Assembly (NCBI GenBank): GCA_964493885.1
Contig: CAZBPV010000002.1
Span: forward strand, 15,614 to 79,613
DNA length: 64,000 nucleotides
Reading direction: 5' to 3'
DNA from: Candidatus Woesearchaeota archaeon
Lineage (GTDB): Archaea; Nanobdellota; Nanobdellia; Pacearchaeales; GW2011-AR1
Shown here: positions 12,005 to 52,958 of the stretch, piece by piece
Numbering within the stretch: position 1 is the stretch's first letter
Layout: each line of letters opens with the position of its first letter
The notes under the pieces: model-generated
Databases searched by the model: none
Told to the model about the DNA's origin: nothing
Seen by the model: only the letters and a program-made list of their open reading frames with translations
Program-made: the position numbers and the translations under genes

Positions 12005-12100
12005 CGCCCCGGACAGGATTTGAACCTGCGACCCTTAGCTTTCTTCTTTAGTTATCCATTTTAGAAGGCTAATGCTCTATCCAGGCTGAGCTACCAGGGC
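12005..12100 (-). tRNA. tRNA-Arg(UCU) with ~21-nt intron (about 12041-12061)
   Basis: Acceptor GCCCTGG/CCGGGGC, D arm GCTC-AGCCTGGATA-GAGC, anticodon stem TTAGC/GCTAA, loop CTTCTA, T arm GCAGG-TTCAAAT-CCTGT. The central 4-bp helix CTTC/GAAG is present; the outer helix is weak. Confidence 0.85.
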
Positions 12101-16833: not shown

Positions 16834-17019
16834 ATGAAAAAAGAGGAATTAATAAGAAAGCAAAAAGCTACGCTTAGTTTGAATCCAGAGATTTATAAAA
16901 GATTTAAGGAATATTGCGAAGAAAATGCCTTTATGCTTTCTAAAAAAGTGGAAAATTTTATGAAGGGTGAATTAGATTGGAAAGAGAATGGCACTGAAAG
17001 AAGGAGGAAGAAAAAATGA
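16834..17019 (+). CDS. small ribbon-helix-helix-like protein (61 aa)
   Basis: KATLSLNPEIYKRFKEYCEENAFMLSKKVENFM resembles CopG/RHH; the stop overlaps the start of the next gene (ATGA at 17016-17019). Confidence 0.35.
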   Translation: MKKEELIRKQKATLSLNPEIYKRFKEYCEENAFMLSKKVENFMKGELDWKENGTERRRKKK

Positions 17020-20000: not shown

Positions 20001-22187
20001 GAGGATTTCACAAAAGAAGAATTTTTGAGTTCAATGAATAACGGGCATCTTTATTCAACACAAGGGCCAACAATGAATTCAGAGTTTACTCTTTATTGCG
20101 ATGATGGAGAAAGCTATTATATGGGAGAAATAGCTAATTGCACTGAAATCCTTGTTAATGCAACAATCTCTGCAACAAATTCTTCTTATAAACTTCAAAA
20201 TATTTCTTTAATAAAAGATGGGGTTTCTTTAAGTGTTAAAAATGACTGTCCTGCAAGCCAGAACTGCACTTTTAATTATTCTGAAAATGTTTCATCTTCT
20301 GGGTATTATAGATTAGAAGCATGGGATTCTAATAACAAACAAATTTGGAGCAATCCAATTTGGATTACAAAGTTTGTTCCAAAGATAAATATTACTATTA
20401 ATGTTCCTTTAAATGGTTCTACAACAACAGAGCATTTCCCTGAGTTTAATGTAACTTTAGATAGAGTTGCAGAAGCTTTATGGTTTAATCATAAGGGGGC
20501 TAATCAAACTTTATGTGTTAATTGTTCTAGTTATTATGGAAATGGAGGGAATCTTCAAGAAGGGGTTCATAATTTCAGAGTTTATGCAAATAACAGCAAT
20601 AACGAAGTTTCAACTGCACTTTCTACATTTACAATTGATTTTAATAAGACTTATTATGAGAATTTTTCAAATAATTTTTCAATTAGTAGTATTACAAATG
20701 CTTTTTGGAATTCAAATAAGATAAGTTTAGCTACAAATGAAACTTCTGGGAATATTACTATTAAAAACATGGTTGCTGTGAATAATCTTAGCAGTCTTAG
20801 AATTATTTGGACAGAAAATAATACTGAAAATGCAAGAGGAGAAGGGCAATTAAATCCAGTAAGATTTTTTTACAAGTTTAGAGACGACTCTTGGAGTGAA
20901 TTAATTAATGGCTCTGAAATTTCGGGATTAAATACAAATAATTTAAGCATGAAATTTGAGTTTGATAAAAATAATTATACTTCTATAGACTTACTGAATT
21001 TCAGATTAACCTGGACTGAATTTACAATACCTTTAATTTCAAATGTTAGTGAATCAACAACAACTTCTAGTGCAACAATTTCATGGGCTACTGATACTGC
21101 GTCTAATTCAAGCGTGGAATATGGAACATCTTTTTCACTAGGAAGCATACAAAGCAATTCTTCTGATACAACAAGTCATTTAGTTACTTTAACTGGATTG
21201 AGTCCAAATACTGTTTATTATTATAAGATAAAAAGTTGCACCATAGACAGCTGTTCAGATTATCCTCAGTATCCTTATCCATTGGATTCATTCACAACTC
21301 AGCAAATTCCTGGAGGAAATAATGGCGGTGGCGGAGGAGGAGGCAGTGGAGGTGGAAACACAACTACTACAATAATTAATACAACTAATATTACTGGAGT
21401 TCATGCAATGTCTTCTTCAACCATAGACAATATAGTTGCTAAAGATGGAGATATAAAGAGTATTTCATGGAAAGTGAAGAATACAGGAACTTTATTTTTG
21501 AATAATTGTGTTTTAAAGGCTGTTGGAGATAAATTTTCTTGGTTGAGTGTTGGAGAGATATTTAATTTAGCTGCAGGACAAGAGCATGATTTTGTATTTA
21601 AGATTAATGTTCCAAAAGGAACTAGTTCTGGAGTGTATTCTATGGGAGTTGAATTAGTCTGCAAAGAACTTAGTGAAAGAGCTGATTTTAATGTTGAAAT
21701 TACTAAATCAAAATTAAATTTTGATTTAATCAAAGTAGAGAGAGCAGGGGGCAATGAAATTATTATTAAATATAATTTAAAGGAAATTTCTGGAATTAAT
21801 CAGGAAGTTAATCTGCAGTTCATGATATTTGATGATAAGAATAATAAAATATTAGAAGCTATTGATATAAGAGAGCTTAAGGCATTTGAAGAAGGAGAAT
21901 TTACATTAAGAATCAAGGTTGATAAAAGATTAAAAGGAAATCTTAATCTTCTTGTTAATTTAAACTCAGAAACCTACTCTGGTTTTATTCAGGAGGATGT
22001 TTTCCTTGCTCCAATGAGCGGATTTTCAATATTTGGTGAAACTTTAGAGGGTTCAGATATAGTTCTTTGGGGAGCAATAGCTTTTGTTTCTGGCATTATC
22101 TTGTTTTTTATTGCAAAGCAAATAATTAATAGTAGAAAGGCAAAAAGAAGAATGAATAATATTATTTATTTAGGATATCATAGATAA
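17016..22187 (+). CDS. giant surface protein (1723 aa): 2x LamG/ConA-like lectin domains, Ig-like modules, PHP metallo-phosphoesterase domain, FN3, CARDB-like domain and a C-terminal TM anchor
   Basis: Signal MKRGILLILILLISFALVAG. LamG pattern twice (AYWRLNE...FDGVNDYVNLG and SAYYFDGVNDYIIVADS). PHP motifs IHTHTTNSDG...AVTDHN...AAHPNW...SDDMH. FN3 ATISWATDTASNSSVEYG...LTGLSPNTVYYYKI. Gly linker, terminal TM and KAKRR. A GAAGGAGGA SD-like element lies upstream. Confidence 0.8.
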   Translation: MKRGILLILILLISFALVAGLSFSDLGEEDFSGTFNNTFYNLSGFVQVGNLSINGSEITEMIGNENGLIAYWRLNESSWNGTSGEVKDVLGNRNGTSISGANTTSGLFARAGSFDGVNDYVNLGNIFSSPQDNGTISFWFKTSDTNGTILSQDATGWNNLDTLFGIGQQNVIACTAGYLCFETHGPSTSLSRGVNSGVIVNDNEWHFAVLSFNNTGYYLYLDGDLKNTVAYDGGIWGSNGSQDIYMGQRQLMSYYSGNVDEVAFWNRDLNSTEIQELYQKGSNSSGEQPTTGTYESEVKDAGGISNWTDISWNGLSSGNPLGKANIIFLRMNGNAYDENGINNGTVSGAVNASGKYDSAYYFDGVNDYIIVADSSSLDLTSDFSLGAWVNMSSLPSGVNEWRGIITKGGQGDGLGTDHNYFLAIDNAIWGTGVGITFGYENSAGANFDTRYQINSTYLNAWHHIVGVFNDSVNTMTLYINGIQVSQDSDVTATPTTQSEPLFIGRNMNGSSNIYYFNGTIDDAFITNKSLSLTQIQEIYSNNDYSSSSEGGSSNLQIQVRTSNDNSSWTDYTSYYNYPSSLNISNSRYIQYRAYFADVLAKLYNLTINYLSLGAVSVSLDSPADNYLTNEYNINVTCSASASAGLVNITPYYSKFDWGQSEPARSVSGTSNTTIFTLNEISSTINWNCYACDVEGNCSFASQNRTIIGDILSPEITLISPANNNLSTERSNNFVFNVTDNRAGTLNCTLYVDSEAKASNSSVFSGVSTILSASLSNGNYSWWINCSDGINYNISETRNISVNNTGNIIWAKTQIHTHTTNSDGSSSPATVISTYKNADYNILAVTDHNVITNCSNYTNLSENFICIQSEEWTPGSGTYLKHVLRINISSHVAVGTSTDAEVQNAMTTAKNEGGFAVAAHPNWSSTLWNTSSLINFQNYSHMEIYNGVIERLSPSPYAVQKWDVVLQSGKRMFGVASDDMHVISSDFGKGWIMVYMEDFTKEEFLSSMNNGHLYSTQGPTMNSEFTLYCDDGESYYMGEIANCTEILVNATISATNSSYKLQNISLIKDGVSLSVKNDCPASQNCTFNYSENVSSSGYYRLEAWDSNNKQIWSNPIWITKFVPKINITINVPLNGSTTTEHFPEFNVTLDRVAEALWFNHKGANQTLCVNCSSYYGNGGNLQEGVHNFRVYANNSNNEVSTALSTFTIDFNKTYYENFSNNFSISSITNAFWNSNKISLATNETSGNITIKNMVAVNNLSSLRIIWTENNTENARGEGQLNPVRFFYKFRDDSWSELINGSEISGLNTNNLSMKFEFDKNNYTSIDLLNFRLTWTEFTIPLISNVSESTTTSSATISWATDTASNSSVEYGTSFSLGSIQSNSSDTTSHLVTLTGLSPNTVYYYKIKSCTIDSCSDYPQYPYPLDSFTTQQIPGGNNGGGGGGGSGGGNTTTTIINTTNITGVHAMSSSTIDNIVAKDGDIKSISWKVKNTGTLFLNNCVLKAVGDKFSWLSVGEIFNLAAGQEHDFVFKINVPKGTSSGVYSMGVELVCKELSERADFNVEITKSKLNFDLIKVERAGGNEIIIKYNLKEISGINQEVNLQFMIFDDKNNKILEAIDIRELKAFEEGEFTLRIKVDKRLKGNLNLLVNLNSETYSGFIQEDVFLAPMSGFSIFGETLEGSDIVLWGAIAFVSGIILFFIAKQIINSRKAKRRMNNIIYLGYHR

Positions 22188-24270: not shown

Positions 24271-27200
24271 TTATTTCTTGGTTCTATTATATATTGTCCA
24301 GATATTACGCTGGTCTCTACTTAGTAAATCTGCAATTTCTGAGAACTTCATGTCTTTTTCTTTTAAATAAACAACAATCGCCTCAAAAATTGTTAATTCT
24401 CTGTTTTTGAAAATTGAAGTTGGTATATGAACAAGGGTTTTACTTATTTTTAATTTCTCAGGCATTTTTATTTTAGATTTATTATATGCTGTCCAGATTG
24501 TTCTATCATCTCTGTTTAATAATAATGCAATTTCATGATAAGTTAATTCAAGATTTTCTTTAAGATATTTAACAATAGCTTCTAATCCTCCAATTTTATC
24601 TGTGAAAATACTTACTGGAATAGATAAATCATCTACAATTATCTTTCTCTTTTTCTTTTTTGCAGTTGAAATCATTACAAGGCTTAATATTACTTTGATT
24701 AGCCAGCTTCCATATCCTTGTGTTGAATAAGTCTGAGATGAAACATCCCCTACTTCATTTATGCAATAGTATAATTGTTCTTGTCCGATTCCCCCTCCAA
24801 GGCTTAGGTTTCCTGCTTGGAGAATTACTCCTGTAATGTTTGTGTCAGTTGCATTCTGAAGCCGAGTTCCTGCACAATCATCTGCTGTTCCTATTGAGAA
24901 ATTCTCAGCAGCAAGATACTCACTTGCATTTGTTTCTCCGAGAAGATTTAGTGCATTTATTGCAATTTTATCTGTCATGTTGTAGTTTCCTGTATTATTA
25001 ATAATCACTGGGTCATTTGTTGCTGTTTGATTAGATGCGCTGGCATTTACATTAAAAGTAATATTGCCTGGAGATATTACTATTGCTTGCAATAAATTAT
25101 ATGTAAAATATGTTAAATCATTAATAGTCTCATTTTCATAAATATCTTTTCCAGAAACACTTACATTCCAGTTACCTGCTGAGTCAAAATACCACATATT
25201 TATTGTGCAGGAATAATTTGCACAAGTAGAGTTAATGTCTGAAACTAATATGCAGGAATTATTTTCACGTGTTGCTTGCCCTGCTCTTGTGAAATTGGCT
25301 TTAACACTTGTGTCATTTAAATCTGCAACACCATTTTCATCGCACATTGTTGTGTAGAATGTTATTGGAGTTGAACTTGCTTCTATTGGATTTGTATTTG
25401 CAATTGGAGAAATGTAAGTTATATTCGGAGCTATATTTACGGGAGCAGTGTAATTAATTTTCAAACTTCTATTTGTATCTGCCCAGTCAGTTTGGCTGGA
25501 ATTGTCATAAGCAAGGCAATTCCAGGTATAATTTCCATTAATTAATGATAAATTCCAGCTTGTTGAGTTGCTTGTTCCAGAAATTGCTGTTGTCTGATTT
25601 AATGCAAAGCTTGAGTTTGTTGAGTCTGTTATATATAAACTCATATTTACTAATTGGTAATCATCAGTTGCATTGCATTGGAATGTAATATTGACTGGAG
25701 AGGAGGAATCATTGTAATAGTTATCTAAAGGAAGACTAAGAGTTACATTTGGAGAGTTGTCAAGAATAGTATAGCTTATATTTAATTCAGGCCATCTTGT
25801 GCTGTTAATATTATCACTGCTTGCAAAGCTTGTTGTTCCGCTTCCTGCAGTTGTTGTTCTTAAAAGTATACCATAATTTACAAGAGTTCCATTTACCATA
25901 TTTTGAACTAAATCTGTTAAATTCCAGTCAAAGAAAGTATTGATTGCTGTGATAGTTGTGTTATTCCAGATATTTGAGTCAAAATCTCCTCCAGAAATAT
26001 CCCAGCTTGCAGTTCCACTTCTATTATTCCATGTTGCACCATTTCCTGTTATTGTTCCTGTGCCTGTTCCTTCTGTCCATGTACTATTAACTCTGTAAAC
26101 ATTTACTATTGCATCAGAGCTTCCTTTTGCAGTTGCATACAATGTTAAAATTGCTGAATCAATTATTGCATTTGCTGGAATACTTGAAACATTAAATTCT
26201 ATTAGAATCCTTCTTGCATCATCTCCTCTTATATCAAGTGTTGAATCTGCACCATAATTAGCATTTGGAGTGCCTTGAACAATATGAGTATCTTTTCCAA
26301 GAGTTGCATTTGGCTGCAGAACCTCAATAAATCCCGGGTCTGTTGAGTTTATAGTTATATTATATGTTTCTCCTGGAGTTAATAATTTCGCAGTTGTCCA
26401 ATTTAATTCATCGTTGCAAAGAAGAGTAGTCATATTCCAGTCAAGGCATTTGTATAAGTAATTTCCTTGAGTGGCATTCATGCTTAGAGTCATATTATCA
26501 AAAATCATGCATTCTGCAGATATTGCATAACTGTTATTTCCAATTGTTTCATTTGTATTGCTTTCAAAAGTAATATTACTGCATCCACTGATGTTAAATC
26601 CTGAAATAAATATATTCTCTACATCTTCATCAGAGATGGTGATATTCAAGTCATAAATTCCATTTCCGTAATCTGTTGCAATTGTCACGCTATAATTTAA
26701 TTCACTGCCTTCATTGGAAGTTAGGTTTATGTCTGGAGCTGCGTCAATAGTTATGTTTCTGATTTCGCTTCTGCCCCAATTTTCAATTTCATCCATTGCG
26801 TATATGCTGTAGGTATAAGAATTATCAGCCAAGCCAGTTTTGTTTAAATACAAGGAAATATTATTATCTGAGCCAATTACATTTAGGCTTTCATTTCCTC
26901 CATTCCATTGCAACAAGTAATCATCTATTGAATTAGCATCTGTGGCAGTTGCATTTATGTATATCCCATTTTGATTTAGTGTTGAATTGTTATCTGGTGT
27001 TGGGGATACAAACAAAATAATTGGAGCAGTATTGTCTATTGTGAAATTTCCTCCAAGAGTATATGATACATTATATAATTCAACAGTATTATTTTCAAAG
27101 ACAGTTATTCTTAAAGAATAATTTTCATCAGCATATTGACTTGTATTCCATGCATAACTTGTTGAGCTTGCATTTCCATAATTACTTATAATTGTTGCGT

Positions 27201-30200
27201 TATAACTCAAATCAGGATTAAGAAGAGTTATGTTGAACTGCAAGCTGTCTCCTTCTACATCATAAACATTGCTCCAGATTATATTATAAATCCCGGAAAT
27301 AACTTCATTAGGGGTTGGGGTGAGCAGGAATGGTGTTGTTGGAGCGTCGTTTATTTCTTCAATTGTAAAGTTAGTTTTTTCAGTATTATTTACTGCTCCA
27401 AGAGTATCATTTGCAATAATTGTAATATTATAATCTCCTTGTATTGAGGTATCTGTAAAGCTTCCAACATAAAGTAAAGGATTTATTCCTGTTTCTAAAT
27501 CATCCCACTCAACACTTATATTCCCCCAACCTGTTTCTGTTGATTCAGTCTCCAAAGTAATAAACAGTCCCGGATAAACATCTATTTCACTTTCTGTTTC
27601 CTCAAACCAAGAACTATCTGAGTTATTCCAAGTATAAAATGTGAAGGTATTATTGACTCTTTTTATTCTGAATTTTCCTTCTGTGTCATTGGTTTCTCTT
27701 TCTGAAATATAATCTGAGATATTTCCGTCATTTACAAACACATCATAGTTTCTTCCATAACCTGTCCAGTTTCCAATAGACATAAATATATTTTTAGAAG
27801 CATTTATTGAAGATGAAATCTCAGTTAATTTAAACAGCATGGCATAATCAATTCCTGATTCATTAGTGATATTAAATGAAACATTCATGTCAAAATCTCC
27901 AATTGTTTGCTGAATCATTACAAGACTGCAATAAGTATCTGTGTTTGGAGTCCCATTTCCACTTATTGAAGTATATGCTTTGTCTGTTATTGTTGTATCA
28001 ATGTTGGCTGTACAGATTTGATTGCTTTCAATAGACTCATTTTCAACTTTCCAGACAATCCCCATTGTATTAAAGTTAAAATTATCTTTTTGAGGGGGTT
28101 GATAAAGAGAAATATTCACTGCTGTGCTATTCGGGTAAGTTATCTCTGCCATTGCAGAGCTTATTCCATCACTGTCAGTTATATTTGCCATTATTGCAAT
28201 ATAACTATCTTCTTGTCTTACAGTGTTTGCTTTAGGGTAGAGGATTACCACGCTTGCGGGAGTTGGAGTGGTTAAATTGAATGTTACGCTTGTTGAGTTG
28301 AAATTTCCAAGAGTATCATTTGCATAGGCATAAATTGTATTGCTTCCTTCACTGAAGTTATAGTACAAAGATGAATTATAAGTCAGATTTGCAGTTCCAT
28401 TATTCCACCAAATATTAATTGCATCAGAATTATTTGTAATATTTATTAAAATTGGATTAGAAATATAATTTTGATTTAATGGAGAAATAAATACAATATA
28501 TGGGGGGGTTGCATCTAATGTTATTGTATAATTTCCTTCATTGCTATAATTTGAATTTCCATTTGCATCAGAACCAAGACAATTCCATTTGAATGAATTG
28601 TCATAAGGTAAATTATAAGTCCAGTTTGTTTGATTGAACACTCCTGTTAGGTTTGTTGTGTTAGAATGTATAAGATTATTGCTAGAATTCCATATTTTTA
28701 ATGTGAGGTTTGCAATTTCTATATTTGAGATATTGCATGAGAATGTCTGGCTTGATTGATTTGTTAAGGTATTATTTGCAGGAGAGATTAAATGGACTTC
28801 TGGAGAAGTTATGTCCTGAGCAGTTATTGTGTAGACTATTGTTCCACTTAAATCAGTCAGAGGCATTGTTATTGTTTTTTCTGTTGTGTTAATTATAACA
28901 TCATTAGTTATATCTGTCGTATTCCCATTTGTTGTTTTTGTTACATTAAATTCCCAATCATCAGGCACGCCGTAAGCAGAATAATTTGTCCATGTTGTTA
29001 CATTATATAACATAACCTGTGAAATGAAAATACTTGATAAAGTTATATTCCATCTTTTATCTGACGTTGTGTTATAGTAAATTGTTTCATTGTTTCTGAT
29101 TGCATCTTTAATACCTGCCTGTAAAGTTTCATTTATAGTTGTATTGCCTGGAATAACCTCGGTATTCCAGCTAATCTGATTGTTTGTATAGGTTGTGAGA
29201 TTATTCGGCGCACCTGCAGAAGTATTATCACTTGCCAATAACTGTCCTGTTGAATTCCAGACATAATTTGTTCCATTTATCCTACTATTTGGATAATCTG
29301 CAAGTATCTGCGGCTTGAAGAAATAATGAGTATATCTTTCTGAGGACTCTGTATTGTTGAATGTTATCCACCATTTTCTTGTAACATTTATATTTTGGTT
29401 AGAACCAATAGTATAATTATTTTCAATCTGTGCCCATGTTGCAATTGAACTTAGCATTTGTGTTGGTTCAGCATGCTTTATTTCTATGTTTGCTGGTTGT
29501 CCTGTGTAGTTGTAGTAAACTGTAACCTGCTCAGAAACAGCAGAAGAGCAATTTAAATGCAAGTGCATTACTAAATAATTATTTTGCGAGATTGTGTAAT
29601 TTTCAGTCATATTCTGCTCAATCAAAGTTGGAGTGTTTGCTGAAATTAATACAGGCGAGTCGCAGTGCTCTATAAGTGGATTGAGATTAAAGTTATAGAC
29701 CTGCATGCACAAATATGGCTGGCATGTATCATTGCTGACAGAAACATTCAATCGCAAAGTATGCAATCCAAGCATATTGTAATCTTTCATGAAAGAGCAG
29801 TTTGTTCCTGCTCCGCAAAAATAAAACATCTTGCTTAATTCATTTTCTCCAATGCTTGCGCTTATGGCTTCTGTGAAATTATAGACATTTCCTTGCGTAG
29901 ACTCTTTTCTCAGCCAGGTTGTCGTGTAATTATTAGCTGAGCCGTAACTTCTGTTTTCCCATTCCCATAAATACGCAAATAACCAGACATTTGTGGATGT
30001 GTTGTTGGATGAAGAGTTATAATTGGTTTTTGAGCATGTCACATTAAAATTAACAACATCATACATTAGATAATTACTCACATTCCCTGTGTAGTTTCCA
30101 GAACTTTCATTGTATGTTAAAGAGGTTATATCGCTTGTCTCGTCATTTGTAACATTACAGATTGCTCCGCTAATTGGCTGTCCTAGGCTATCTAGGTAAC

Positions 30201-33123
30201 GCGCTTGGAATGGAATATAAATATCATATCCAGCTCCGGGACTTCTTCCTTGAGGATACATTGTTTGATTTACTGAAAATGCAAGGCTTGTTGGTATGCT
30301 CTGCACTACAAAACTCTGAACATCTGTCTGATTGCTGTTTCCCGCAGTATCATTGCAATATAATGTCCATGTGTTGCTTCCTTCATTTGAAGTTATGTTG
30401 GTAAAGTTTATTCCAGCGACAACAGCAGAACTATTTATAGTTCCATTATTATACCAACAAAATCCTGGATTGTCATCGCTGTAAGTATAATTTAATGCAG
30501 AGACATTTACAGAATAGGTTGTATTTTGAGGATAGGTTATGTTGATTTGTGGGGAAGTTATATCTGCTGTATAATTTATTTTCAAACTCCTGTTTGCATC
30601 TGCCCAGTCAGACTGAGAGGCATTGTCATAAGTAAGACAATTCCAGGTATAATTTCCATTAATTAATGATAAATTCCAGCTTGTTGAGTTGCTTGTTCCA
30701 GAAATTGCTGTTGTCTGATTTAATGCAAAGCTTGAGTTTGTTGAGTCTGTTATATATAAACTCATATTTACTAATTGGTAATCATCTGTTGCATTGCATT
30801 GGAAGGTAACATTGACTGGGGAGGAGGAATCATTGTAATAATTATCTTCTGGCAGACTTAAGGTTACATTTGGAGAGTTATCTACTGCAGCTCCACAGCT
30901 TCCGTCCCATATTGTTCCATTAATGTAATACTGCTTTAATGTTGTTATATTTGAGGAATTTGAATAAGCAACTATAAATGTTCCTGGGCAGATTTGCTGT
31001 CCTGTTACAGATTCTTTGGCTACAACACTCATTAAATGGTAGTTTGCATTTTCTTCTGTGTCAATAGTAAATGTGGCTATGTTTGTTCCATTTCCATAAT
31101 AAGTTGCTCCAACAATATTTCCTGCAGTTGCATTATACCATATTAAAACAAAAGAATCATTTGCATAATTTTCTGATTTTATAGCAGCAACATCCAACCA
31201 TGTTCCTGTAGTTGGGCCTGCATTTGTTTCTATTATTGTATTTTCTATTAGTGAAGTTCCGTTTTTGTAGATTATAGTATATCCAATATCTTGGTCATTT
31301 GATAAGTAAAATGCATAAACAAACTTGTCATTATCTAGTCCAGCAATACTTAACCTTGAGTCTGTTGCTGCTGATGGGTTAACATTTACTCTAGCAACAG
31401 CTTCTCCTCCCGTTTCATTATAAATATTGAATGCCAAATCATTTACTCCCTGGTCAAACCAGCCATAAACAAAACTTGTAGAATTTATCGCAGATACACT
31501 AATAGTGTCTGTGAGAGCATCATTGGCTGCTGTTGTTGGATCTACAAGAATTGAGCCTGTCAGATTGTTTCCTGAATTGTCAAATATCTTTAATTGAGCA
31601 TCATCTGTTGAATCATCTCTCCATCCTATAACAAACCTATCCCCCATTTGAGTAATAGACAAATCAGTGAAATGATTATCTGCTGTTGCTTGCGCAATAT
31701 TGTCATCAACAATAATATCTCCAGTTAGTTTGTCTCCATTAATATCATAAATTGCAAGAGTAATATTTGCAATATTATTTGCGGTGTCATGGTCATTTAT
31801 CCATGCAACAACAAAATGAGTTTGATTTATTGCAGATATAGCAACTCTTGGGTAAAGGGGCTGGTTTGTTGAATCGATAGTGCTGTTTGATAAAATAGTT
31901 CCATTTGTGTTATAAACTCTGAAATAAACACTTTTATCTTCAGAGGCATAAATCATTGCAAAAGTAGTATTATCTAGAGGGGTTGTGTCTATGTCTAAGG
32001 AAGAGTTTTGAGAAACTGATTCCTGAAGCAACTCTCTTATAAGAGTTTCATTTTCTTCTTCAACAGGAGTTTCTGGCTCTTGTTCTGTCGGGATTTCTTC
32101 TGGTTCTTCAGGCGCTTCTTCGGGGTATTTTATGATGCTATACCTTATTTCATCTAGATTTATTGTTGCTGAATCAATTTCTATTCTTAATGTGTATGAA
32201 GATTCATTTAAATTAAGAGATTCAAGATTGCAGGATTCTTCGCAGATATCTGTGAAAGTTCTTGTTCTTATTTCAGTTTCAGGTTCTGAACTTGGTTCTT
32301 GTTCTGAATCAGGAACTTCTGTTTGATTTTCTTCTTCAACAGGAGTTTCATTGATTTCTTCTGCGGGGATTGTTGGAATTTCTGGTTCAAGTTCTTCTAT
32401 AGGTATGTCTCTTGTTCCGTCACTTTCTGTATCTTCTTGGGTTTCTTCAACTTCTCCTGTTACTTCATCATCTTTTACTTTTTCTTCTTTATCTTTTTCC
32501 TCTTTCTCGTCTTTTGTTTTATTTTCAGCTACTAATCCTGTGATTGTTCTTGTGCCTGTTTTTAATGTCGAGGTGTCAAGAATTAAGATATTATTTAAGT
32601 AGATTTTTGCTTCGCCGTCACCTTGTATTGCCCCTGATAATCTTACTGAATTTAATTGTCCTGGGTTTTCCAATTGCAATTCATATTCTGAATTCTCAGA
32701 GAAATTAATATTTAGACCTTGAGTATAAGGGGTTATAATTATTTGAGAAGCATTTTCATCTTGAGTAAAAAAACCAACAAAGTTGGAGTTGTTGAATATC
32801 AAGGAGATTAAGAATAATCCAACAATGCATGCAAGCAAAAATATTAGATGAGTTTTTTTCCCAACATGGCTATGATGTTGCTTTATTCTTTTGTGGCATT
32901 CAAGTGATTCAAAATGATAAAAATGAATCCATTCTTCTATTGTTCTCCCATCTCTTTTATGATGAATTATTTCTAGATATCTTGCATAAGAAATTTGTTT
33001 TTTTCTGTAAGCTTCTTTTAGCTTTTCCAGGTAATTAATTAAGTCTCTTTTTCTGGTTTCAGACTCATGTTTTCTTCCATGCAAATGATGCAATTCAGAC
33101 ATAGATAATTTCTTGCTAATCAT
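24271..33123 (-). CDS. giant bitopic protein (2950 aa): cytoplasmic His/Lys-rich N-terminus, TM1, acidic linker, beta-propeller-like repeats, many Ig-like modules, DNRLRE-like domain, TM2, and a cytoplasmic tandem HTH tail
   Basis: Uninterrupted 8.85-kb ORF. TM1 LIFLLACIVGLFLISLIF (about 32794-32850). Repeats of the FVVAW/FVIGW/FVYGW type. DNRLRE-like stretch GKDTHIVQGTPNANYGADSTLDIRGDDARRILIEFNVSSIP...AILTLY. TM2 WLIKVILSLVMIS (about 24667-24720). Two IP.SIF...EAIV.YLKE...EIA.LL.RD.R.IWT.Y repeats at 24274-24666. Confidence 0.8.
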   Translation of the reverse strand: MISKKLSMSELHHLHGRKHESETRKRDLINYLEKLKEAYRKKQISYARYLEIIHHKRDGRTIEEWIHFYHFESLECHKRIKQHHSHVGKKTHLIFLLACIVGLFLISLIFNNSNFVGFFTQDENASQIIITPYTQGLNINFSENSEYELQLENPGQLNSVRLSGAIQGDGEAKIYLNNILILDTSTLKTGTRTITGLVAENKTKDEKEEKDKEEKVKDDEVTGEVEETQEDTESDGTRDIPIEELEPEIPTIPAEEINETPVEEENQTEVPDSEQEPSSEPETEIRTRTFTDICEESCNLESLNLNESSYTLRIEIDSATINLDEIRYSIIKYPEEAPEEPEEIPTEQEPETPVEEENETLIRELLQESVSQNSSLDIDTTPLDNTTFAMIYASEDKSVYFRVYNTNGTILSNSTIDSTNQPLYPRVAISAINQTHFVVAWINDHDTANNIANITLAIYDINGDKLTGDIIVDDNIAQATADNHFTDLSITQMGDRFVIGWRDDSTDDAQLKIFDNSGNNLTGSILVDPTTAANDALTDTISVSAINSTSFVYGWFDQGVNDLAFNIYNETGGEAVARVNVNPSAATDSRLSIAGLDNDKFVYAFYLSNDQDIGYTIIYKNGTSLIENTIIETNAGPTTGTWLDVAAIKSENYANDSFVLIWYNATAGNIVGATYYGNGTNIATFTIDTEENANYHLMSVVAKESVTGQQICPGTFIVAYSNSSNITTLKQYYINGTIWDGSCGAAVDNSPNVTLSLPEDNYYNDSSSPVNVTFQCNATDDYQLVNMSLYITDSTNSSFALNQTTAISGTSNSTSWNLSLINGNYTWNCLTYDNASQSDWADANRSLKINYTADITSPQINITYPQNTTYSVNVSALNYTYSDDNPGFCWYNNGTINSSAVVAGINFTNITSNEGSNTWTLYCNDTAGNSNQTDVQSFVVQSIPTSLAFSVNQTMYPQGRSPGAGYDIYIPFQARYLDSLGQPISGAICNVTNDETSDITSLTYNESSGNYTGNVSNYLMYDVVNFNVTCSKTNYNSSSNNTSTNVWLFAYLWEWENRSYGSANNYTTTWLRKESTQGNVYNFTEAISASIGENELSKMFYFCGAGTNCSFMKDYNMLGLHTLRLNVSVSNDTCQPYLCMQVYNFNLNPLIEHCDSPVLISANTPTLIEQNMTENYTISQNNYLVMHLHLNCSSAVSEQVTVYYNYTGQPANIEIKHAEPTQMLSSIATWAQIENNYTIGSNQNINVTRKWWITFNNTESSERYTHYFFKPQILADYPNSRINGTNYVWNSTGQLLASDNTSAGAPNNLTTYTNNQISWNTEVIPGNTTINETLQAGIKDAIRNNETIYYNTTSDKRWNITLSSIFISQVMLYNVTTWTNYSAYGVPDDWEFNVTKTTNGNTTDITNDVIINTTEKTITMPLTDLSGTIVYTITAQDITSPEVHLISPANNTLTNQSSQTFSCNISNIEIANLTLKIWNSSNNLIHSNTTNLTGVFNQTNWTYNLPYDNSFKWNCLGSDANGNSNYSNEGNYTITLDATPPYIVFISPLNQNYISNPILINITNNSDAINIWWNNGTANLTYNSSLYYNFSEGSNTIYAYANDTLGNFNSTSVTFNLTTPTPASVVILYPKANTVRQEDSYIAIMANITDSDGISSAMAEITYPNSTAVNISLYQPPQKDNFNFNTMGIVWKVENESIESNQICTANIDTTITDKAYTSISGNGTPNTDTYCSLVMIQQTIGDFDMNVSFNITNESGIDYAMLFKLTEISSSINASKNIFMSIGNWTGYGRNYDVFVNDGNISDYISERETNDTEGKFRIKRVNNTFTFYTWNNSDSSWFEETESEIDVYPGLFITLETESTETGWGNISVEWDDLETGINPLLYVGSFTDTSIQGDYNITIIANDTLGAVNNTEKTNFTIEEINDAPTTPFLLTPTPNEVISGIYNIIWSNVYDVEGDSLQFNITLLNPDLSYNATIISNYGNASSTSYAWNTSQYADENYSLRITVFENNTVELYNVSYTLGGNFTIDNTAPIILFVSPTPDNNSTLNQNGIYINATATDANSIDDYLLQWNGGNESLNVIGSDNNISLYLNKTGLADNSYTYSIYAMDEIENWGRSEIRNITIDAAPDINLTSNEGSELNYSVTIATDYGNGIYDLNITISDEDVENIFISGFNISGCSNITFESNTNETIGNNSYAISAECMIFDNMTLSMNATQGNYLYKCLDWNMTTLLCNDELNWTTAKLLTPGETYNITINSTDPGFIEVLQPNATLGKDTHIVQGTPNANYGADSTLDIRGDDARRILIEFNVSSIPANAIIDSAILTLYATAKGSSDAIVNVYRVNSTWTEGTGTGTITGNGATWNNRSGTASWDISGGDFDSNIWNNTTITAINTFFDWNLTDLVQNMVNGTLVNYGILLRTTTAGSGTTSFASSDNINSTRWPELNISYTILDNSPNVTLSLPLDNYYNDSSSPVNITFQCNATDDYQLVNMSLYITDSTNSSFALNQTTAISGTSNSTSWNLSLINGNYTWNCLAYDNSSQTDWADTNRSLKINYTAPVNIAPNITYISPIANTNPIEASSTPITFYTTMCDENGVADLNDTSVKANFTRAGQATRENNSCILVSDINSTCANYSCTINMWYFDSAGNWNVSVSGKDIYENETINDLTYFTYNLLQAIVISPGNITFNVNASASNQTATNDPVIINNTGNYNMTDKIAINALNLLGETNASEYLAAENFSIGTADDCAGTRLQNATDTNITGVILQAGNLSLGGGIGQEQLYYCINEVGDVSSQTYSTQGYGSWLIKVILSLVMISTAKKKKRKIIVDDLSIPVSIFTDKIGGLEAIVKYLKENLELTYHEIALLLNRDDRTIWTAYNKSKIKMPEKLKISKTLVHIPTSIFKNRELTIFEAIVVYLKEKDMKFSEIADLLSRDQRNIWTIYNRTKK
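25449..25757 (-). repeat. intragenic repeat copy A (Ig-like module NSPNVTLSLP...KINYTA)
   Basis: About 309 bp similar to 30570-30878; 25517-25665 is identical to 30638-30786 (149 bp, compared base by base). Confidence 0.85.
30570..30878 (-). repeat. intragenic repeat copy B
   Basis: See copy A; the offset is 5121 bp (a multiple of 3, so the frame is preserved). Confidence 0.85.
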
Positions 33124-33457
33124 TACTTAATATGTGTGTAAAATTATTTATAAATCTACCTATTATATATGTATAGAGAGAAAAAGGTAAGTTTGATTAC
33201 CTATTATGTATGTAATTATTATTTAAATACTTTTCTATATTAAAAATGTTACCTATTATGTATGTATTAAACTAATAATTCTCTAGAGTTGTTGTATTAT
33301 TTACTTATTAAAAATGTATTAAACTTTTTTATTGTACTTATTATGTATGTTTTTATTAAATGATTATTTTTTATTTGTTATTTAATACTTACTATGTGTG
33401 TACAATAAATGATATCTAATTTTCTCTTCGCTGATTATTTTACTTATTATGTGTGTA
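33124..33457. repeat. array of eight direct copies of the 17-nt motif TACYTAYTATRTRTGTA in a divergent intergenic region
   Basis: Copies start at 33124, 33157, 33198, 33250, 33302 (degenerate), 33335, 33386 and 33441, all in the same orientation. Confidence 0.8.
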
Positions 33458-33507
33458 TTAAATTCTTATTTGCAAAGATTTATAAAATGTAGTGTCTAAA
33501 GGAATAT

Positions 33508-35193
33508 ATGGCTTTTATTGTTAAAAAAAAGGTTTATGGAAATTATTATTATTATCTTCGAGAAAGTAAGAGGCAAGGGAAAAAGGTAATTTCAAAATGT
33601 TTGGCGTATTTGGGAAAAAATAAAGAAGAAGCTGTAAAAAGAGCAAAAGAATTTTTAGAAAACAAAGAGATTAAAAACTCTGCAGAAAATAATATTAAAA
33701 TGGAAAAAGAAATTGTTGAAAATATTCCGGAAAAAAATGAAATTTCTATAGAAGATATAGCTGTTTTTTGCAAGAAAAAGGGATTTGTTTTTCCAAGCTC
33801 TGAAATTTATGGGGGATTTTCTGGATTCTGGGATTTCGGGCCATTAGGAGTTGAACTTTTTAATAATCTAAAATCAAACTGGTGGAAGTATTTTGTTCAG
33901 GATAATGAAAATATGGTTGGAATAGATGCAAGCATTATTTCTAATCCTCGAACCTGGAAAGCTTCAGGACATATAGAGAGTTTTAGTGATATTTCTATAC
34001 AATGCAAGAAGTGCAAAAAAATAAATAAGATTGATAAGGTTGAGATAGGAAAAGTGAAATGCGAATTTTGCGGAGGAGAATTAGATAAGACAACTGCAAA
34101 AGAATTAAAATTATTATTTTCAACAGAAGTCGGGGCTACTGATAACAGAATACTTTCTTATTTACGAGGGGAAACTGCGCAAGGAATGTTTCTTGATTTT
34201 AAATCTGTTTTTGATACATCAAGAGTAAAACTTCCTTTTGGAATTGCCCAAGTTGGAAAGTGTTTTAGAAATGAAATTGCTCCAAGAGATTTTTTATTCA
34301 GAAGCAGAGAGTTTACAATTGGAGAATTTGAATTTTTTATACATCCAGATGAATTTAAATGCAATTTATTGGATAAACAACATCTTGAAGTTGAATTAAG
34401 ATTGCTTGATGCTGAAACTCAGGAAAAAGGAGATTGCTCTTTGAAAAAAACAACTATTAAAAAAATGCTCGAAGAAAAAAGACTTGATGAATGGCATGCT
34501 TACTGGCTTGCTGAACAACTTCTTTGGTTTAAGTCAATTGGATTATTAAATAAAATTAAAGTGAGGGAGCATAAAAAATCTGAATTATCACATTACTCTT
34601 CTGCAACTTTTGACATGGATTATGAATATCCTTTTGGAAGTAAAGAAGTTGCAGGAAATGCAAATCGAGGGCAGTATGATTTAACTCAGCATATTCGAGA
34701 GAGTAAGCAAAAATTAGAGATTTTTGATGAAACAACAAAACAAAAAATAATCCCGAGGGTTATTGAACCAACTTTTGGAATGGAAAGAGTTTTTCTTGCA
34801 GTTTTAGCCAATGCTTATAATTATGATCATAAACGTGGAAATGTTGTTTTAAAGCTCCCAAATAAACTTGCACCAATTAATTTAGGAATTTTTTCATTAG
34901 TAAACAAGCTTAATGAACAAACTAAGGAGCAAATTTATAATTTATTGAGGAGAGAGTTTATCTGTCAGTTTGATTCTTCAGGGAGTGTTGGAAGAAGATA
35001 TGCAAGAGCAGATGAAATTGGAATTCCTTACTGCATTACTTTTGACTTTGAAAGTCTAAAAGACAAATCAGTCACAATAAGAGAAAGAAATACAACAAAA
35101 CAAGTAAGAGTAAAGATTTCAGATTTAAAAAATATCTTGAAAAAGCTTATCGACGGAGAAATTGAGTTCGAAAAATCAGGAAAAATCATCTAA
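33508..35193 (+). CDS. glyS: glycyl-tRNA synthetase (archaeal/eukaryotic alpha2 type) with a ~65-aa N-terminal extension
   Basis: KKKGFVFPSSEIYGGFSGFWDFGPLG, FRNEIAPRDFLFRSREF, and a C-terminal anticodon-binding domain. The canonical core begins near the internal M at 33700. Confidence 0.9.
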   Translation: MAFIVKKKVYGNYYYYLRESKRQGKKVISKCLAYLGKNKEEAVKRAKEFLENKEIKNSAENNIKMEKEIVENIPEKNEISIEDIAVFCKKKGFVFPSSEIYGGFSGFWDFGPLGVELFNNLKSNWWKYFVQDNENMVGIDASIISNPRTWKASGHIESFSDISIQCKKCKKINKIDKVEIGKVKCEFCGGELDKTTAKELKLLFSTEVGATDNRILSYLRGETAQGMFLDFKSVFDTSRVKLPFGIAQVGKCFRNEIAPRDFLFRSREFTIGEFEFFIHPDEFKCNLLDKQHLEVELRLLDAETQEKGDCSLKKTTIKKMLEEKRLDEWHAYWLAEQLLWFKSIGLLNKIKVREHKKSELSHYSSATFDMDYEYPFGSKEVAGNANRGQYDLTQHIRESKQKLEIFDETTKQKIIPRVIEPTFGMERVFLAVLANAYNYDHKRGNVVLKLPNKLAPINLGIFSLVNKLNEQTKEQIYNLLRREFICQFDSSGSVGRRYARADEIGIPYCITFDFESLKDKSVTIRERNTTKQVRVKISDLKNILKKLIDGEIEFEKSGKII

Positions 35194-35808: not shown

Positions 35809-35903
35809 TGACTCTGGGGGGATTTTAACCCCCGACCTCCGCCTTGCTCAATATTTTTTGATATTCATGAGAGCGGCGCTGCTGAACACTGAGCTACAGA
35901 GTC
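35809..35903 (-). tRNA. tRNA with CAU anticodon (elongator Met, or Ile2) with 21-nt intron (35845-35865)
   Basis: Acceptor GACTCTG/CAGAGTC, anticodon stem CCGCT/GGCGG, loop CTCATG, canonical BHB (CTCA/TGAG plus ATAT/ATAT), T arm GGGGG-TTAAAAT-CCCCC. Confidence 0.8.
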
Positions 35904-51837: not shown

Positions 51838-51963
51838 GGGCTCATAGTTTAATGGATAGAATAGCTGGCTACGGCGATGATGTTTGCGAGGCTTTAAGCC
51901 TATTGATATGCGAGCAGGCATCGGAGAAACCGGCTGATGAAGGTTCGATTCCTTCTGGGCTCA
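51838..51963 (+). tRNA. tRNA-Arg with apparent ACG anticodon and 54-nt intron (51875-51928)
   Basis: Acceptor GGGCTCA/TGGGCTC, anticodon stem GCTGG/CCGGC, loop CTACGG, T arm GAAGG-TTCGATT-CCTTC. The BHB has outer helix GATG/CATC and central helix CTAC/GGAG with one A.G mismatch at position 34. Confidence 0.7.
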
Positions 51964-52856: not shown

Positions 52857-52958
52857 TTTAATGGATAAAATTTCAGGTTTCGGAAATTTTGCTTATTTAA
52901 AAATTATAATCAATATTGGAAAACCCTGACGATGGGGGTTCGAATCCCTCTGGGCCTA
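52847..52958 (+). tRNA. tRNA-Arg(UCG) with 40-nt intron (52884-52923)
   Basis: Acceptor AGGCTCA/TGGGCCT, anticodon stem TCAGG/CCTGA, loop TTTCGG, BHB central helix TTTC/GGAA, T arm GGGGG-TTCGAAT-CCCTC. Confidence 0.8.

What the first reader, a model, noticed from the sequence alone, without database searches (positions are those of the whole stretch)
33124..33457. Eight phased direct copies of a 17-nt motif fill the divergent promoter region between the giant gene and glyS
TACYTAYTATRTRTGTA occurs at 33124, 33157, 33198, 33250, 33302 (degenerate centre), 33335, 33386 and 33441, all in one orientation. The first copy abuts the giant gene's start codon (33121-33123). Spacings are 33, 41, 52, 52, 33, 51 and 55 bp, close to 3, 4, 5, 5, 3, 5 and 5 helical turns, so the sites would lie on one DNA face. 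That is typical of cooperative binding by a regulator or a chromatin-type protein. An obvious candidate is the tandem-HTH tail encoded at the other end of the same gene (autoregulation), but this is pure inference.
Basis: partly seen in the sequence, partly recalled or inferred. Interest (0 to 1): 0.65.

Follow-up and report, generated by a model that had tools for sequence, protein, structure and literature searches.

The report
Autoregulatory operator array, giant archaeal gene
The eight repeats are real and are best read as binding sites for the DNA-binding tail that the neighbouring giant surface-protein gene itself encodes, part of a widespread and apparently undescribed self-regulating module in tiny DPANN archaea.

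Summary
Eight copies of one 17-mer lie at 33124-33457, all on one strand, nowhere else in the 64 kb, and phased at 10.5 bp (R=0.87, P about 0.002-0.013).

The organism is a Pacearchaeota/Woesearchaeota-type archaeon. TATA boxes sit about 30 nt before start codons, so mRNAs are leaderless.

Read in the sense of the giant gene, the motif is TACAYAMATRRTAAGTA. In distant relatives the same motif abuts the ATG of homologous giant genes, between TATA and start. A second copy usually lies 52 or 33/34 bp upstream. Two copies is the norm; eight is an expansion.

Every complete homologue ends in the same tandem sigma-70-region-4-like HTH. That HTH also occurs as a stand-alone gene of about 170 aa, usually just upstream of a giant gene. 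All 11 stand-alone genes fetched by protein alone have motif-like sites upstream.

A residue in each HTH recognition helix (T versus N/V) covaries with position 4 of the matching half-site: 53/53, 4/4 and 8/10 sites.

Best explanation: an autoregulatory operator array, probably repressive, bound by the gene's own tail. Binding is untested. This is a new variant of a known kind. No description turned up in the literature library searched.

The parts
33124..33140 (-). Operator site 1 (proximal), sense TACACACATATTAAGTA. It occupies -17 to -1 of the giant gene's ATG, between the TATA box and the leaderless start.
   Evidence: 21.3 bits. The same position is conserved in 50 of 59 family genes.
33147..33155 (-). 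TATA box of the giant gene (sense ATTTATAAA). TTTATAAA starts at -31 of the ATG.
   Evidence: Inverted pair I12. TATA-like elements start at -30 to -26 in most of the 40 crude genes of the window (27 occurrences). ATTTATAAG-N7-site-ATG is conserved in relatives.
33157..33173 (-). Operator site 2, sense TACATATATAATAGGTA. It abuts the upstream (BRE) side of the TATA box, 33 bp from site 1.
   Evidence: The same 33/34-bp layout occurs in L099, L120, L123, L134, L141, L149 and L178.
33198..33214 (-). Operator site 3 (-74 class), sense TACATACATAATAGGTA
   Evidence: A -74 site is also present in L132 and L179.
33250..33266 (-). Operator site 4, sense TACATACATAATAGGTA
   Evidence: 23.7 bits
33302..33318 (-). 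Operator site 5, with a degenerate centre, sense TACATTTTTAATAAGTA
   Evidence: 13.7 bits, the weakest site
33335..33351 (-). Operator site 6, sense AACATACATAATAAGTA
   Evidence: 19.2 bits
33386..33402 (-). Operator site 7, sense TACACACATAGTAAGTA
   Evidence: 25.1 bits
33441..33457 (-). Operator site 8 (most distal, -317), sense TACACACATAATAAGTA. It lies 21 nt upstream of the glyS TATA box.
   Evidence: 26.2 bits
24271..33123 (-). Giant gene (2950 aa). Order of parts: cytoplasmic alpha-hairpin N-domain, TM helix, very large ectodomain (Disaggregatase-repeat hit), C-terminal hydrophobic anchor, tandem HTH.
32851..33123 (-). N-terminal cytoplasmic domain (residues 1-91). It is a long alpha-hairpin that runs into the TM helix (residues 92-110, 32794-32850). 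This is the family signature.
   Evidence: Alignment A3. AF2 pLDDT 87. The fold search returned only helical hairpins. TM score 2.81.
24661..24705 (-). C-terminal hydrophobic segment WLIKVILSLVMISTA (residues 2807-2821), followed by KKKKRK. It is the presumed second membrane span that places the HTH tail in the cytoplasm.
   Evidence: The sequence is shown, but the segment falls below the 19-residue hydropathy threshold, so the topology is inferred.
24274..24660 (-). Tandem HTH tail (129 aa). It has two sigma-70-region-4-like three-helix HTH repeats. The recognition helices begin RDDR-T-IW (repeat 1) and RDQR-N-IW (repeat 2). This is the proposed binder of the 17-mer.
   Evidence: Pfam Sigma70_r4_2 E=1.9e-5. 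AF2 pLDDT 90.5, pTM 0.82. Foldseek to sigma region 4, prob about 1.0, rmsd 0.7-1.4 A. Covariation.
33479..33487 (+). TATA box of glyS (TTTATAAAA, starting at -29 of the ATG). It is not part of the operator array.
33489..33499 (+). GTAGTGTCTAA box between the glyS TATA and ATG. It is a separate, glyS-specific conserved element and is not the 17-mer.
33508..35193 (+). Glycyl-tRNA synthetase gene with a 64-aa N-terminal add-on. It is the divergent neighbour of the giant gene.
   Evidence: It is the divergent neighbour in 18 of 39 metagenome family loci.

Best explanation
The eight 17-mers are operator sites for the tandem sigma-70-region-4-like HTH domain encoded at the 3' end of the same giant gene. 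The array is therefore an autoregulatory operator.

Each 17-mer consists of two 6-bp half-sites, TACAYA and (reverse complement) TACTTA, whose centres are 11 bp apart, so they fall in successive major grooves. HTH repeat 2 (the 'N-type' recognition helix) is proposed to read the 5' half-site, and repeat 1 ('T-type') the 3' half-site. This would explain why the site is asymmetric and always oriented with the gene.

The basic module in relatives has two sites. One sits at -17 to -1, between the TATA box and the leaderless start. The other lies five (or about three) helical turns upstream, on the other side of the TATA box.

Occupancy of sites that flank the TATA box and cover the region where RNA polymerase and TFB must sit most likely represses transcription. 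This would be negative feedback by the gene's own product. In this genome the module has expanded to eight same-face sites, which should make binding more cooperative or of higher avidity.

Shown here: the sites, their phasing, their conservation, their promoter position, the co-occurrence with the HTH, the covariation, and the HTH fold.

Inferred: physical binding, the sign of regulation, and how a tail that starts about 10 residues after a membrane anchor reaches DNA (DNA at the membrane, or proteolytic release).
For: Sites and phasing.

Promoter geometry: in the window's 40 crude genes, 27 TATA-like occurrences start at -30 to -26 of the ATG. The giant gene's TATA is at -31 to -24, with site 1 at -17 to -1 and site 2 abutting the TATA.

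Conservation: all 10 glyS-anchored genome loci that encode the giant-gene N-domain have the motif at its ATG. Of the roughly 70 loci without the N-domain, one (L027) has a strong sense pair next to glyS, two (L017, L047) have a single hit above 15 bits, and the rest have nothing above that level. Of 59 family genes with readable upstream DNA, 50 have a site abutting the ATG and 56 have at least 2 sense sites. None has an antisense site. The modal spacing is 52 bp.

Link to the HTH: all 18 complete giant genes end in the tandem HTH. Eleven stand-alone HTH genes were fetched by protein identity alone (L202, L205, L208, L210-L217). All eleven carry motif-like sites within about 30-350 nt upstream, mostly between TATA and ATG, with almost no hits elsewhere in those loci. 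In L145, L171, L195 and L100 the HTH is a separate gene upstream of the giant gene, and the sites precede the HTH gene.

Covariation: with (r1,r2)=(T,N), 53 of 53 sites have a purine at position 4 of the 5' half and a pyrimidine at position 4 of the 3' half. With (T,T), 4 of 4 sites are symmetric pyrimidine/pyrimidine. With (N,T), 8 of 10 sites are swapped. L215, L216 and L217 were predicted before they were fetched.

Fold: AF2 pLDDT 90.5. T54 and N119 sit at the N-terminal end of the third (recognition) helix of each repeat. Each repeat superposes on ECF sigma region 4 bound to -35 DNA. The only other cytoplasmic domain of the protein is a helical hairpin, not a DNA-binding fold.
Against: There is no binding or expression data of any kind.

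Most metagenome family loci were retrieved with the motif itself, so only the 10 genome loci and the 11 protein-fetched loci are unbiased.

The covariation rests on few independent evolutionary events, perhaps three subfamilies. Variant sites were called with a relaxed pattern, and two (N,T) sites and the (V,T) and (T,I) cases fit imperfectly.

Two more divergent HTH paralogues in L202 show no recognisable site.

In the fused protein the HTH begins about 10 residues after the hydrophobic anchor, so reaching chromosomal DNA needs an extra assumption.

The sign of regulation is inferred only from site position.

The motif resembles the TATA-bearing segment itself (TACATAMAT-TTATAAGT), so some contribution as a basal-factor element cannot be excluded.
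Confidence: 0.7

Rival explanations
1. The sites are an operator array for a different, unlinked transcription factor or a nucleoid protein. On this reading the HTH tail has another function, and the co-occurrence only reflects co-inheritance of the promoter with the gene family.
For: No binding data exist. Within the giant-gene family the promoter and the HTH are inherited together, so co-occurrence there is not independent evidence. Phased arrays are also typical of Lrp-like or chromatin proteins (established knowledge).
Against: The sites follow the HTH when it is a separate gene. This includes L205, where no giant gene is present, only a 116-aa N-domain protein. Half-site identity and orientation change together with the recognition-helix residues of the two HTH repeats. 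The motif occurs nowhere else in the 64 kb, which is unlike a global nucleoid protein.
Confidence: 0.12
2. The repeats are duplicated core-promoter modules (BRE/TATA-like plus initiator) or alternative promoters. They would be read by TBP/TFB rather than by a specific regulator.
For: The motif contains ATAATAAG, which resembles the real TATA box TTTATAAG. The TATA-bearing segment in relatives is itself motif-like and sits midway between the two sites, giving a period of about 26 bp. Several window copies are preceded by TTTAA or TATTTAAATA. Arrays grow by tandem duplication (L145).
Against: In the window's 40 crude genes, 27 TATA-like occurrences start at -30 to -26, yet no other gene has the 17-mer. 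The distal sites in relatives lack their own TATA box at the right distance. Basal-factor elements would not covary with residues of an HTH encoded in the same gene. The invariant blocks TACA and AAGTA are not TATA/BRE consensus.
Confidence: 0.08
3. The array is a replication origin (ORB or iteron-like repeats) or another structural DNA element such as a CRISPR-like array or a mobile-element end.
For: Direct repeats lie in an AT-rich intergenic region. Archaeal origins carry repeated ORB elements (established knowledge).
Against: The motif clusters always abut HTH or giant genes and can occur twice on one contig (L134, L211). The usual copy number is two. There is no turn in cumulative GC skew at 33 kb. 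The spacing is irregular and the repeat is too short for CRISPR. No Rfam hit falls in the region.
Confidence: 0.03
4. The motif acts at the RNA level, as a 5' leader, a small RNA or a translational operator.
For: Copy 1 touches the start codon. If transcription began further upstream, the motif would lie in a 5' UTR.
Against: The genome is leaderless by TATA position, which places copy 1 upstream of the start site. The intergenic RNA folds no better than shuffles (z = 0.16). No Rfam family matches. The upstream copies lie beyond the TATA box.
Confidence: 0.03

Closest known systems
ToxR / TcpP / CadC-type membrane-bound one-component transcription regulators (bacteria)
   Same: One polypeptide combines an extracytoplasmic domain, a membrane anchor and a cytoplasmic DNA-binding domain. 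ToxR binds tandem direct repeats upstream of ctxAB whose number varies between strains. These points come from general knowledge and were not tested here.
   Different: ToxR-type proteins carry an N-terminal OmpR/PhoB winged HTH and are small bitopic proteins. Here the DNA-binding part is a C-terminal tandem sigma-region-4-like HTH behind a second anchor. The ectodomain is thousands of residues long, the host is an archaeon with TBP/TFB promoters, and the target is the gene's own promoter. There is no sequence or fold relationship to OmpR-type domains.
ECF sigma factor / anti-sigma factor pairs
   Same: The HTH repeat has the sigma-70 region-4 fold. The stand-alone HTH gene is followed by a gene for a membrane protein with a cytoplasmic N-terminal helical domain, one TM helix and an outside domain. 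The operon carries its own recognition sites, implying autoregulation.
   Different: There is no sigma region 2, and archaeal RNA polymerase uses no sigma factor. Two region-4-like repeats sit in tandem. The sites overlap the TATA-to-start interval rather than a -35 position. The N-domain is a plain alpha-hairpin with no anti-sigma-domain signature. An interaction between the N-domain and the HTH is untested.
Archaeal autoregulators with several phased operator boxes (for example Ss-LrpB of Saccharolobus, with three regularly spaced boxes in its own promoter) and repressors that bind between TATA and start (MDR1, Phr, LrpA, TrmB)
   Same: The mechanism proposed here is the same: sequence-specific sites around or downstream of the TATA box, cooperative same-face spacing, and control of the regulator's own gene. 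This rests on general knowledge of these systems.
   Different: The protein fold differs (sigma-r4-like tandem HTH rather than Lrp/AsnC, ArsR or TrmB). The site is asymmetric and read by two different repeats of one chain rather than by a homodimer. The regulator is fused to, or encoded next to, a giant surface protein.
Bipartite or two-HTH DNA-binding domains: Tc3 transposase, CENP-B, paired domain; MarA/Rob of the AraC family
   Same: Two HTH units in one chain read two adjacent major grooves of an asymmetric site of about 17-20 bp whose orientation matters. Tc3 (1u78) is the top whole-domain Foldseek hit.
   Different: The whole-domain match is weak (TM 0.26-0.33, E=0.075). The relative arrangement of the two repeats has no close structural precedent in the PDB. 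The half-sites here are in inverted (pseudo-palindromic) rather than direct orientation.

Membership tests
Sigma-70 region 4 / HTH superfamily (fold level) | Three-helix HTH that superposes on sigma region 4 | tested here: met
   The AF2 model has pLDDT 90.5. Foldseek gives prob 0.97-1.0 and rmsd 0.7-1.4 A over 42-50 residues to SigR, SigE, SigA, SigC and SigD region 4.
Sigma-70 region 4 / HTH superfamily (fold level) | Pfam Sigma70_r4_2 match above the gathering score | tested here: inconclusive
   E=1.9e-5, 24.6 bits against a cut-off of 25.7. The precomputed hit PF08281 is listed for many homologues.
ECF sigma factors | Sigma region 2 (core-binding, -10 recognition) N-terminal to region 4 | tested here: not met
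   No region-2 hit in the tail or in the stand-alone homologues. The architecture is r4-like plus r4-like.
ECF sigma / anti-sigma pair | Partner membrane protein with an anti-sigma domain that binds the sigma | not testable with these tools
   A co-encoded N-domain-TM protein exists. Its fold is a simple hairpin. No complex prediction or binding assay was available.
ToxR/CadC-like membrane-bound regulators | OmpR/PhoB-type winged-HTH DNA-binding domain | tested here: not met
   No Trans_reg_C or wHTH hit. The fold is sigma-r4-like.
ToxR/CadC-like membrane-bound regulators | DNA-binding domain tethered to the membrane in the same chain as an extracytoplasmic domain | tested here: inconclusive
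   The N-terminal TM helix (92-110) is strong. The C-terminal hydrophobic stretch 2807-2821 plus KKKKRK precedes the HTH, but it falls below the hydropathy threshold used. The topology is inferred.
Autoregulatory operator (cis element bound by the product of the adjacent gene) | Site conserved at the promoter of the regulator's own gene across relatives | tested here: met
   Found in 10 of 10 genome loci and 11 of 11 protein-fetched stand-alone HTH loci. 50 of 59 family genes have a site abutting the ATG.
Autoregulatory operator (cis element bound by the product of the adjacent gene) | Covariation between DNA-reading residues and site sequence | tested here: met
   The T/N/V residue of each recognition helix tracks purine versus pyrimidine at half-site position 4: 53/53, 4/4 and 8/10 sites. 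Three loci were predicted in advance. The number of independent events is small.
Autoregulatory operator (cis element bound by the product of the adjacent gene) | Physical binding of the protein to the site and an effect on transcription | not testable with these tools
   This requires EMSA or footprinting, in vitro transcription, or reporter assays.
Archaeal replication origin (ORB repeats) | Single or few loci per genome, next to orc1/cdc6, with inverted ORBs around an unwinding element | tested here: not met
   All copies are direct. Clusters occur twice per contig (L134, L211) and always at HTH or giant genes. There is no skew turn.
CRISPR array | Regular repeats of 23-50 nt with unique spacers of similar length | tested here: not met
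   The core is 17 nt, the spacers are 16-38 nt and irregular, and the usual copy number in relatives is 2.

The most novel reading that the evidence does not exclude
The giant surface protein is itself a transmembrane signalling device. Its sigma-r4-like HTH tail, held at the inner face of the membrane, binds the same-face operator array of its own gene, in effect laying the promoter against the membrane. The cytoplasmic alpha-hairpin N-domain, which is always co-encoded either in the same chain or in the next gene, acts like an anti-sigma partner that holds or releases the HTH. Events at the cell surface, such as contact with a host cell, would then be converted directly into expression of the adhesin. 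This would be an archaeal functional analogue of ECF sigma/anti-sigma or ToxR signalling, built from different parts. Same-face phasing would be a geometric requirement for multi-site binding by proteins anchored in a plane.
Probability: 0.2. Interest if true: 0.85.

Novelty: new variant of a known kind. Interest (0 to 1): 0.66.

Why it matters
DPANN archaea are mostly uncultivated episymbionts, and their giant surface proteins are thought to mediate contact with hosts. Almost nothing is known about how these genes are controlled.

This analysis yields three concrete things. The first is a 17-bp operator. The second is a candidate regulator family: 2057 cluster representatives at 50% identity at E<=0.001, and 1670 at E<=1e-10. 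The third is a simple recognition code, in which one residue per HTH repeat tracks one base per half-site. All three can be tested in vitro with synthetic DNA and a 130-residue protein, with no need to culture the organism.

If the tail really acts while tethered to the membrane, it would be an example of a membrane-anchored transcription regulator in archaea, coupled to the very protein it controls.

The eight-site, helically phased array in this genome is the largest example seen here. The usual number is two. It is therefore a natural substrate for studying cooperativity.

Tried and rejected
1. glyS as the owner of the motif. The first relatives were fetched through GlyRS, and the motif at first looked glyS-linked. 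It was rejected because the motif abuts the ATG of the divergent giant gene. It also stays with that gene when glyS is 1.2-2.5 kb away (L070, L072, L076).

2. The GlyRS N-terminal add-on as binder. Rejected because L061, L075 and L076 have the motif although their GlyRS lacks the add-on. The add-on instead correlates with a different box.

3. The N-terminal domain of the giant protein as binder. It is a plain alpha-hairpin. A word-index search with the window's copy found nothing, and a search with the profile found only 4 proteins, so the model rests on a shallow alignment.

4. Sequence search of the tail against the PDB. No hit was found below E=0.2.

5. Rfam at gathering threshold. Nothing was found in the region.

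6. The sigma-70 promoter/terminator scan. It is uninformative for an archaeon.

7. Literature searches for the motif strings and for DPANN giant proteins with HTH tails. No description was found.

8. A strict generic site pattern missed the variant sites in L215-L217. They were first found by eye and then by a relaxed pattern.

9. The RHH protein at 16834-17019. It gave only a weak DUF6364 hit, and there is no motif near it.

Full report
**The observation**

The 384-bp gap between the giant gene (24271-33123, minus strand) and the glycyl-tRNA synthetase gene (33508-35193, plus strand) holds eight copies of TACYTAYTATRTRTGTA. They lie at exactly the stated positions, all on the plus strand, with 0-2 mismatches. 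The rest of the 64-kb window has only three 3-mismatch matches, which is what shuffles predict. A weight matrix built from the proximal sites of 51 gene-family loci, which includes the window's own proximal site, scores nothing else in the window above 8.7 bits. The eight copies score 13.7-26.2 bits.

The start-to-start distances are 33, 41, 52, 52, 33, 51 and 55 bp. They place all copies within about 2.5 bp of one helical phase. The Rayleigh vector length is 0.87 at 10.5 bp, the best period between 5 and 60 bp. P is 0.0015 for a fixed 10.5 bp and 0.013 if 10.0-11.2 bp is scanned.

**Organism and promoters**

Intron-containing tRNAs point to an archaeon. An identical contig from GCA_035256385.1 and GlyRS relatives labelled Pacearchaeota, Woesearchaeota or Nanoarchaeota place the window in a DPANN archaeon.

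Among 40 crude genes of the window, TATA-like elements pile up at -30 to -26 of the ATG: 27 occurrences against 1-5 in other 5-nt bins. Transcripts are therefore essentially leaderless.

The intergenic region carries a perfect inverted pair AGATTTATAAA at 33147-33157 and 33476-33486. These are the two TATA boxes, 31 and 29 nt before the two start codons. Copy 1 therefore occupies -17 to -1 of the giant gene. Copy 2 abuts the upstream (BRE) side of its TATA box. Copy 8 lies 21 nt upstream of the glyS TATA box.

**Whose element is it?**

Eighty glyS loci from species-representative genomes were fetched with GlyRS as the query (GlyRS identity about 55-70%). The motif reappears in a subset of these loci, always on the glyS strand and usually as a pair 52-53 bp apart.

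Reading the flanks showed that the first copy always abuts the start codon of a divergent gene. That gene is the homologue of the window's giant gene. It has a conserved cytoplasmic N-domain (MGRT..AR..I.EL...EISY..Y...R.G.T..EWI.YYD), then a TM helix, then a huge ectodomain.

All ten loci that encode this N-domain have the motif. Of the roughly 70 loci without it, one (L027) has a strong sense pair next to glyS, two (L017, L047) have a single hit above 15 bits, and the rest have nothing above that level. Where glyS is 1.2-2.5 kb away, the motif stays with the giant gene (L070, L072, L076). The element therefore belongs to the giant gene. In that gene's sense it reads TACA[T/C]A[C/A/T]AT[A/G][A/G]TAAGTA.

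**Conserved architecture**

A metagenome scan for TATA-N6-9-motif returned 121 matches. Forty are followed at offset 0 or -1 by an ATG that opens a family member recognised by the N-domain HMM, and two more open truncated ORFs with the same MGRT start.

The family layout is: distal site, about 18 nt, ATTTATAAG, 7 nt, proximal site, ATG. Of 59 family genes with readable upstream DNA, 50 have a site abutting the ATG and 56 have at least two sense sites. None has an antisense site. Fifty-one have exactly two sites, and the window is the only one with eight.

The preferred spacings are 51-53 bp (38 of 84), 34, 32, 44, 55, 64 and 74 bp. These are near 5, 3, 3, 4, 5, 6 and 7 turns.

Expanded arrays occur elsewhere too. 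L145 has six sites, built by tandem copies of a 64-bp two-site unit. L212 has six sites (one weak), four of them in a run spaced about 53 bp apart.

**Link to the HTH tail**

All 18 complete giant genes in the fetched loci end in the same tandem HTH. The tail has 618 word-index homologues, mostly stand-alone proteins of 140-225 aa. An exhaustive search gives 2057 cluster representatives at E<=0.001. Many are proteins of 800-5900 aa with the domain at the extreme C-terminus.

Eleven stand-alone genes were fetched purely by protein identity. Every one has motif-like sites upstream, mostly between TATA and ATG, and almost none elsewhere in the 5-12 kb fetched.

Most stand-alone HTH genes are followed directly by a gene that encodes the N-domain plus a large ectodomain. 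In L205 the next gene encodes a 116-aa N-domain protein alone. The HTH, the N-domain protein and the operator therefore form one module, which exists in fused and split forms. In the split form the operator sits in front of the HTH gene.

**Covariation**

Each HTH repeat has the motif R-x-x-R-[T/N/V]-I-W at the start of its third helix: T54 and N119 in the window's tail.

- **(T,N).** In every locus with repeat 1 = T and repeat 2 = N, including the window, all 53 sites have a purine at position 4 of the 5' half-site (TACAYA). They have a pyrimidine at position 4 of the 3' half-site (reverse complement TACTTA or TACCTA).
- **(T,T).** These proteins have symmetric sites, TACYTA..TARGTA (4 of 4).
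- **(N,T).** These proteins have the swapped arrangement, TACYTA..ACGTA or ATGTA (8 of 10).

The rule was derived from L202, L210, L211, L213 and L214. It then predicted the site type correctly for L215, L216 and L217 before those loci were fetched.

The number of independent evolutionary events is small, so this is supportive rather than conclusive. It is, however, hard to explain if another protein reads the sites.

**Folds**

The tail folds with high confidence (pLDDT 90.5, pTM 0.82) into two three-helix HTH units, each preceded by a short strand. Each unit superposes on ECF sigma region 4, including structures bound to -35 DNA (prob about 1.0, rmsd 0.7-1.4 A). The best whole-domain match is the bipartite HTH of Tc3 transposase, and it is weak.

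The N-domain is a long alpha-hairpin that continues into the TM helix (pLDDT 87, from a 5-sequence alignment). It matches only generic hairpins. The HTH is therefore the only recognisable DNA-binding part of the module.

**Mechanism proposed**

The conserved blocks TACAYA and TAAGTA are centred 11 bp apart, one helical turn. This suits two HTH units of one chain in successive major grooves. Different repeats reading different half-sites would explain the fixed orientation.

In archaea, sites between TATA and start, and on the BRE side of the TATA box, are positions from which regulators block TFB and RNA polymerase recruitment. This is established for MDR1, Phr, LrpA and others. Negative autoregulation is therefore the most likely sign. 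That step is inferred.

Eight same-face sites should raise cooperativity or avidity. In the fused protein the HTH follows a hydrophobic segment plus KKKKRK by about 10 residues. Either the promoter is bound at the membrane or the tail is released. This cannot be decided here.

**Rivals**

- **A different regulator.** Disfavoured by the split-gene loci and the covariation.
- **Duplicated core-promoter modules.** The motif does resemble the TATA-bearing segment, but it occurs at no other promoter in the window.
- **A replication origin or CRISPR-like array.** Neither fits. The copies are direct, the usual number is two, clusters occur twice per contig, and there is no skew turn.
- **An RNA-level role.** Unsupported. 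The starts are leaderless, the fold z-score is 0.16, and there is no Rfam hit.

**Comparison and novelty**

In function the module resembles three known systems:
- membrane-bound one-component regulators (ToxR, CadC);
- autoregulated ECF sigma/anti-sigma operons;
- archaeal autoregulators with phased boxes (Ss-LrpB).

It is not a member of any of them. It has no OmpR-type domain, no sigma region 2, and a different fold from Lrp.

No paper in the searchable library mentions the motif or this architecture.

I rate it a new variant of a known kind: an autoregulatory operator array served by an undescribed archaeal tandem-HTH family tied to giant surface proteins. Interest is moderate to high, because it gives a directly testable operator, regulator and recognition code in organisms that cannot be cultured.

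Noticed in passing
window 33489-33499 (GTAGTGTCTAA) and glyS codons 1-64 (33508-33699); L002-L081: A second, unrelated conserved box, GTAGTGCCTAA, sits 2-4 nt after the glyS TATA box and a few nt before the ATG. With up to 2 mismatches it is present in 35 of 55 relatives whose GlyRS carries a conserved N-terminal add-on of about 60 aa (MAFIVKKxINGKxYYYL..AYLGK..EAE). It is present in only 1 of 23 relatives whose GlyRS lacks the add-on (Fisher P = 7e-7). The add-on has no Pfam match. This suggests a nucleic-acid-binding appendage that autoregulates an aminoacyl-tRNA synthetase gene.
   Followed up: partly
window 33124-35193 and metagenome family loci (for example L082, L088, L095, L130, L143, L166, L178): The divergent pairing of the giant gene with glyS is widely conserved. 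GlyRS is the divergent upstream neighbour in 18 of 39 metagenome family loci with enough sequence, down to 32% GlyRS identity. The reason is unknown: co-regulation or ancient synteny.
   Followed up: partly
window 56129-56301 (+): Rfam RT-16 RNA (RF03019, 65.5 bits, above the gathering score). This RNA family's name (RT) suggests a link to reverse transcriptases, so a retroelement or diversity-generating system may lie nearby. This reading comes from memory and was not examined.
   Followed up: no
L089, L102, L114 (about 200-260 nt upstream of N-domain family genes): In these loci the two operator sites lie 200-260 nt before the ATG. The intervening stretch is GC-richer with long complementary runs (for example GGGGCAAGGCTAGGC...GCCTGCCTTGCTCC). 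It may be a structured leader or a small RNA.
   Followed up: no
window 1543-1657, 12005-12100, 35809-35903, 51838-51963, 52847-52958: Five tRNA genes were found by Rfam but missed by ARAGORN. They are 95-126 nt long, which implies archaeal introns.
   Followed up: no
window 16834-22187 (+): A second large surface-protein gene (1723 aa; Laminin_G_3, fn3-like) overlaps the end of a 61-aa ORF that precedes it (weak DUF6364 hit). It has no 17-mer and no tandem-HTH tail. Not all big surface genes in this genome belong to the module.
   Followed up: partly
L202 1717-2727 (-) and 10299-10790 (+); search results: More divergent paralogues of the tandem HTH exist, including proteins of about 300-370 aa with two tandem-HTH modules (four HTH units). 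No recognisable 17-mer precedes the two examined in L202. They may read different sites.
   Followed up: no
L027 5894-5944: Two perfect motif copies 34 bp apart flank a TATA box next to glyS. The adjacent gene starts MGRV but has no recognisable N-domain, and a 190-aa surface-protein-like ORF lies in another frame. This may be a decayed or rearranged family member.
   Followed up: no
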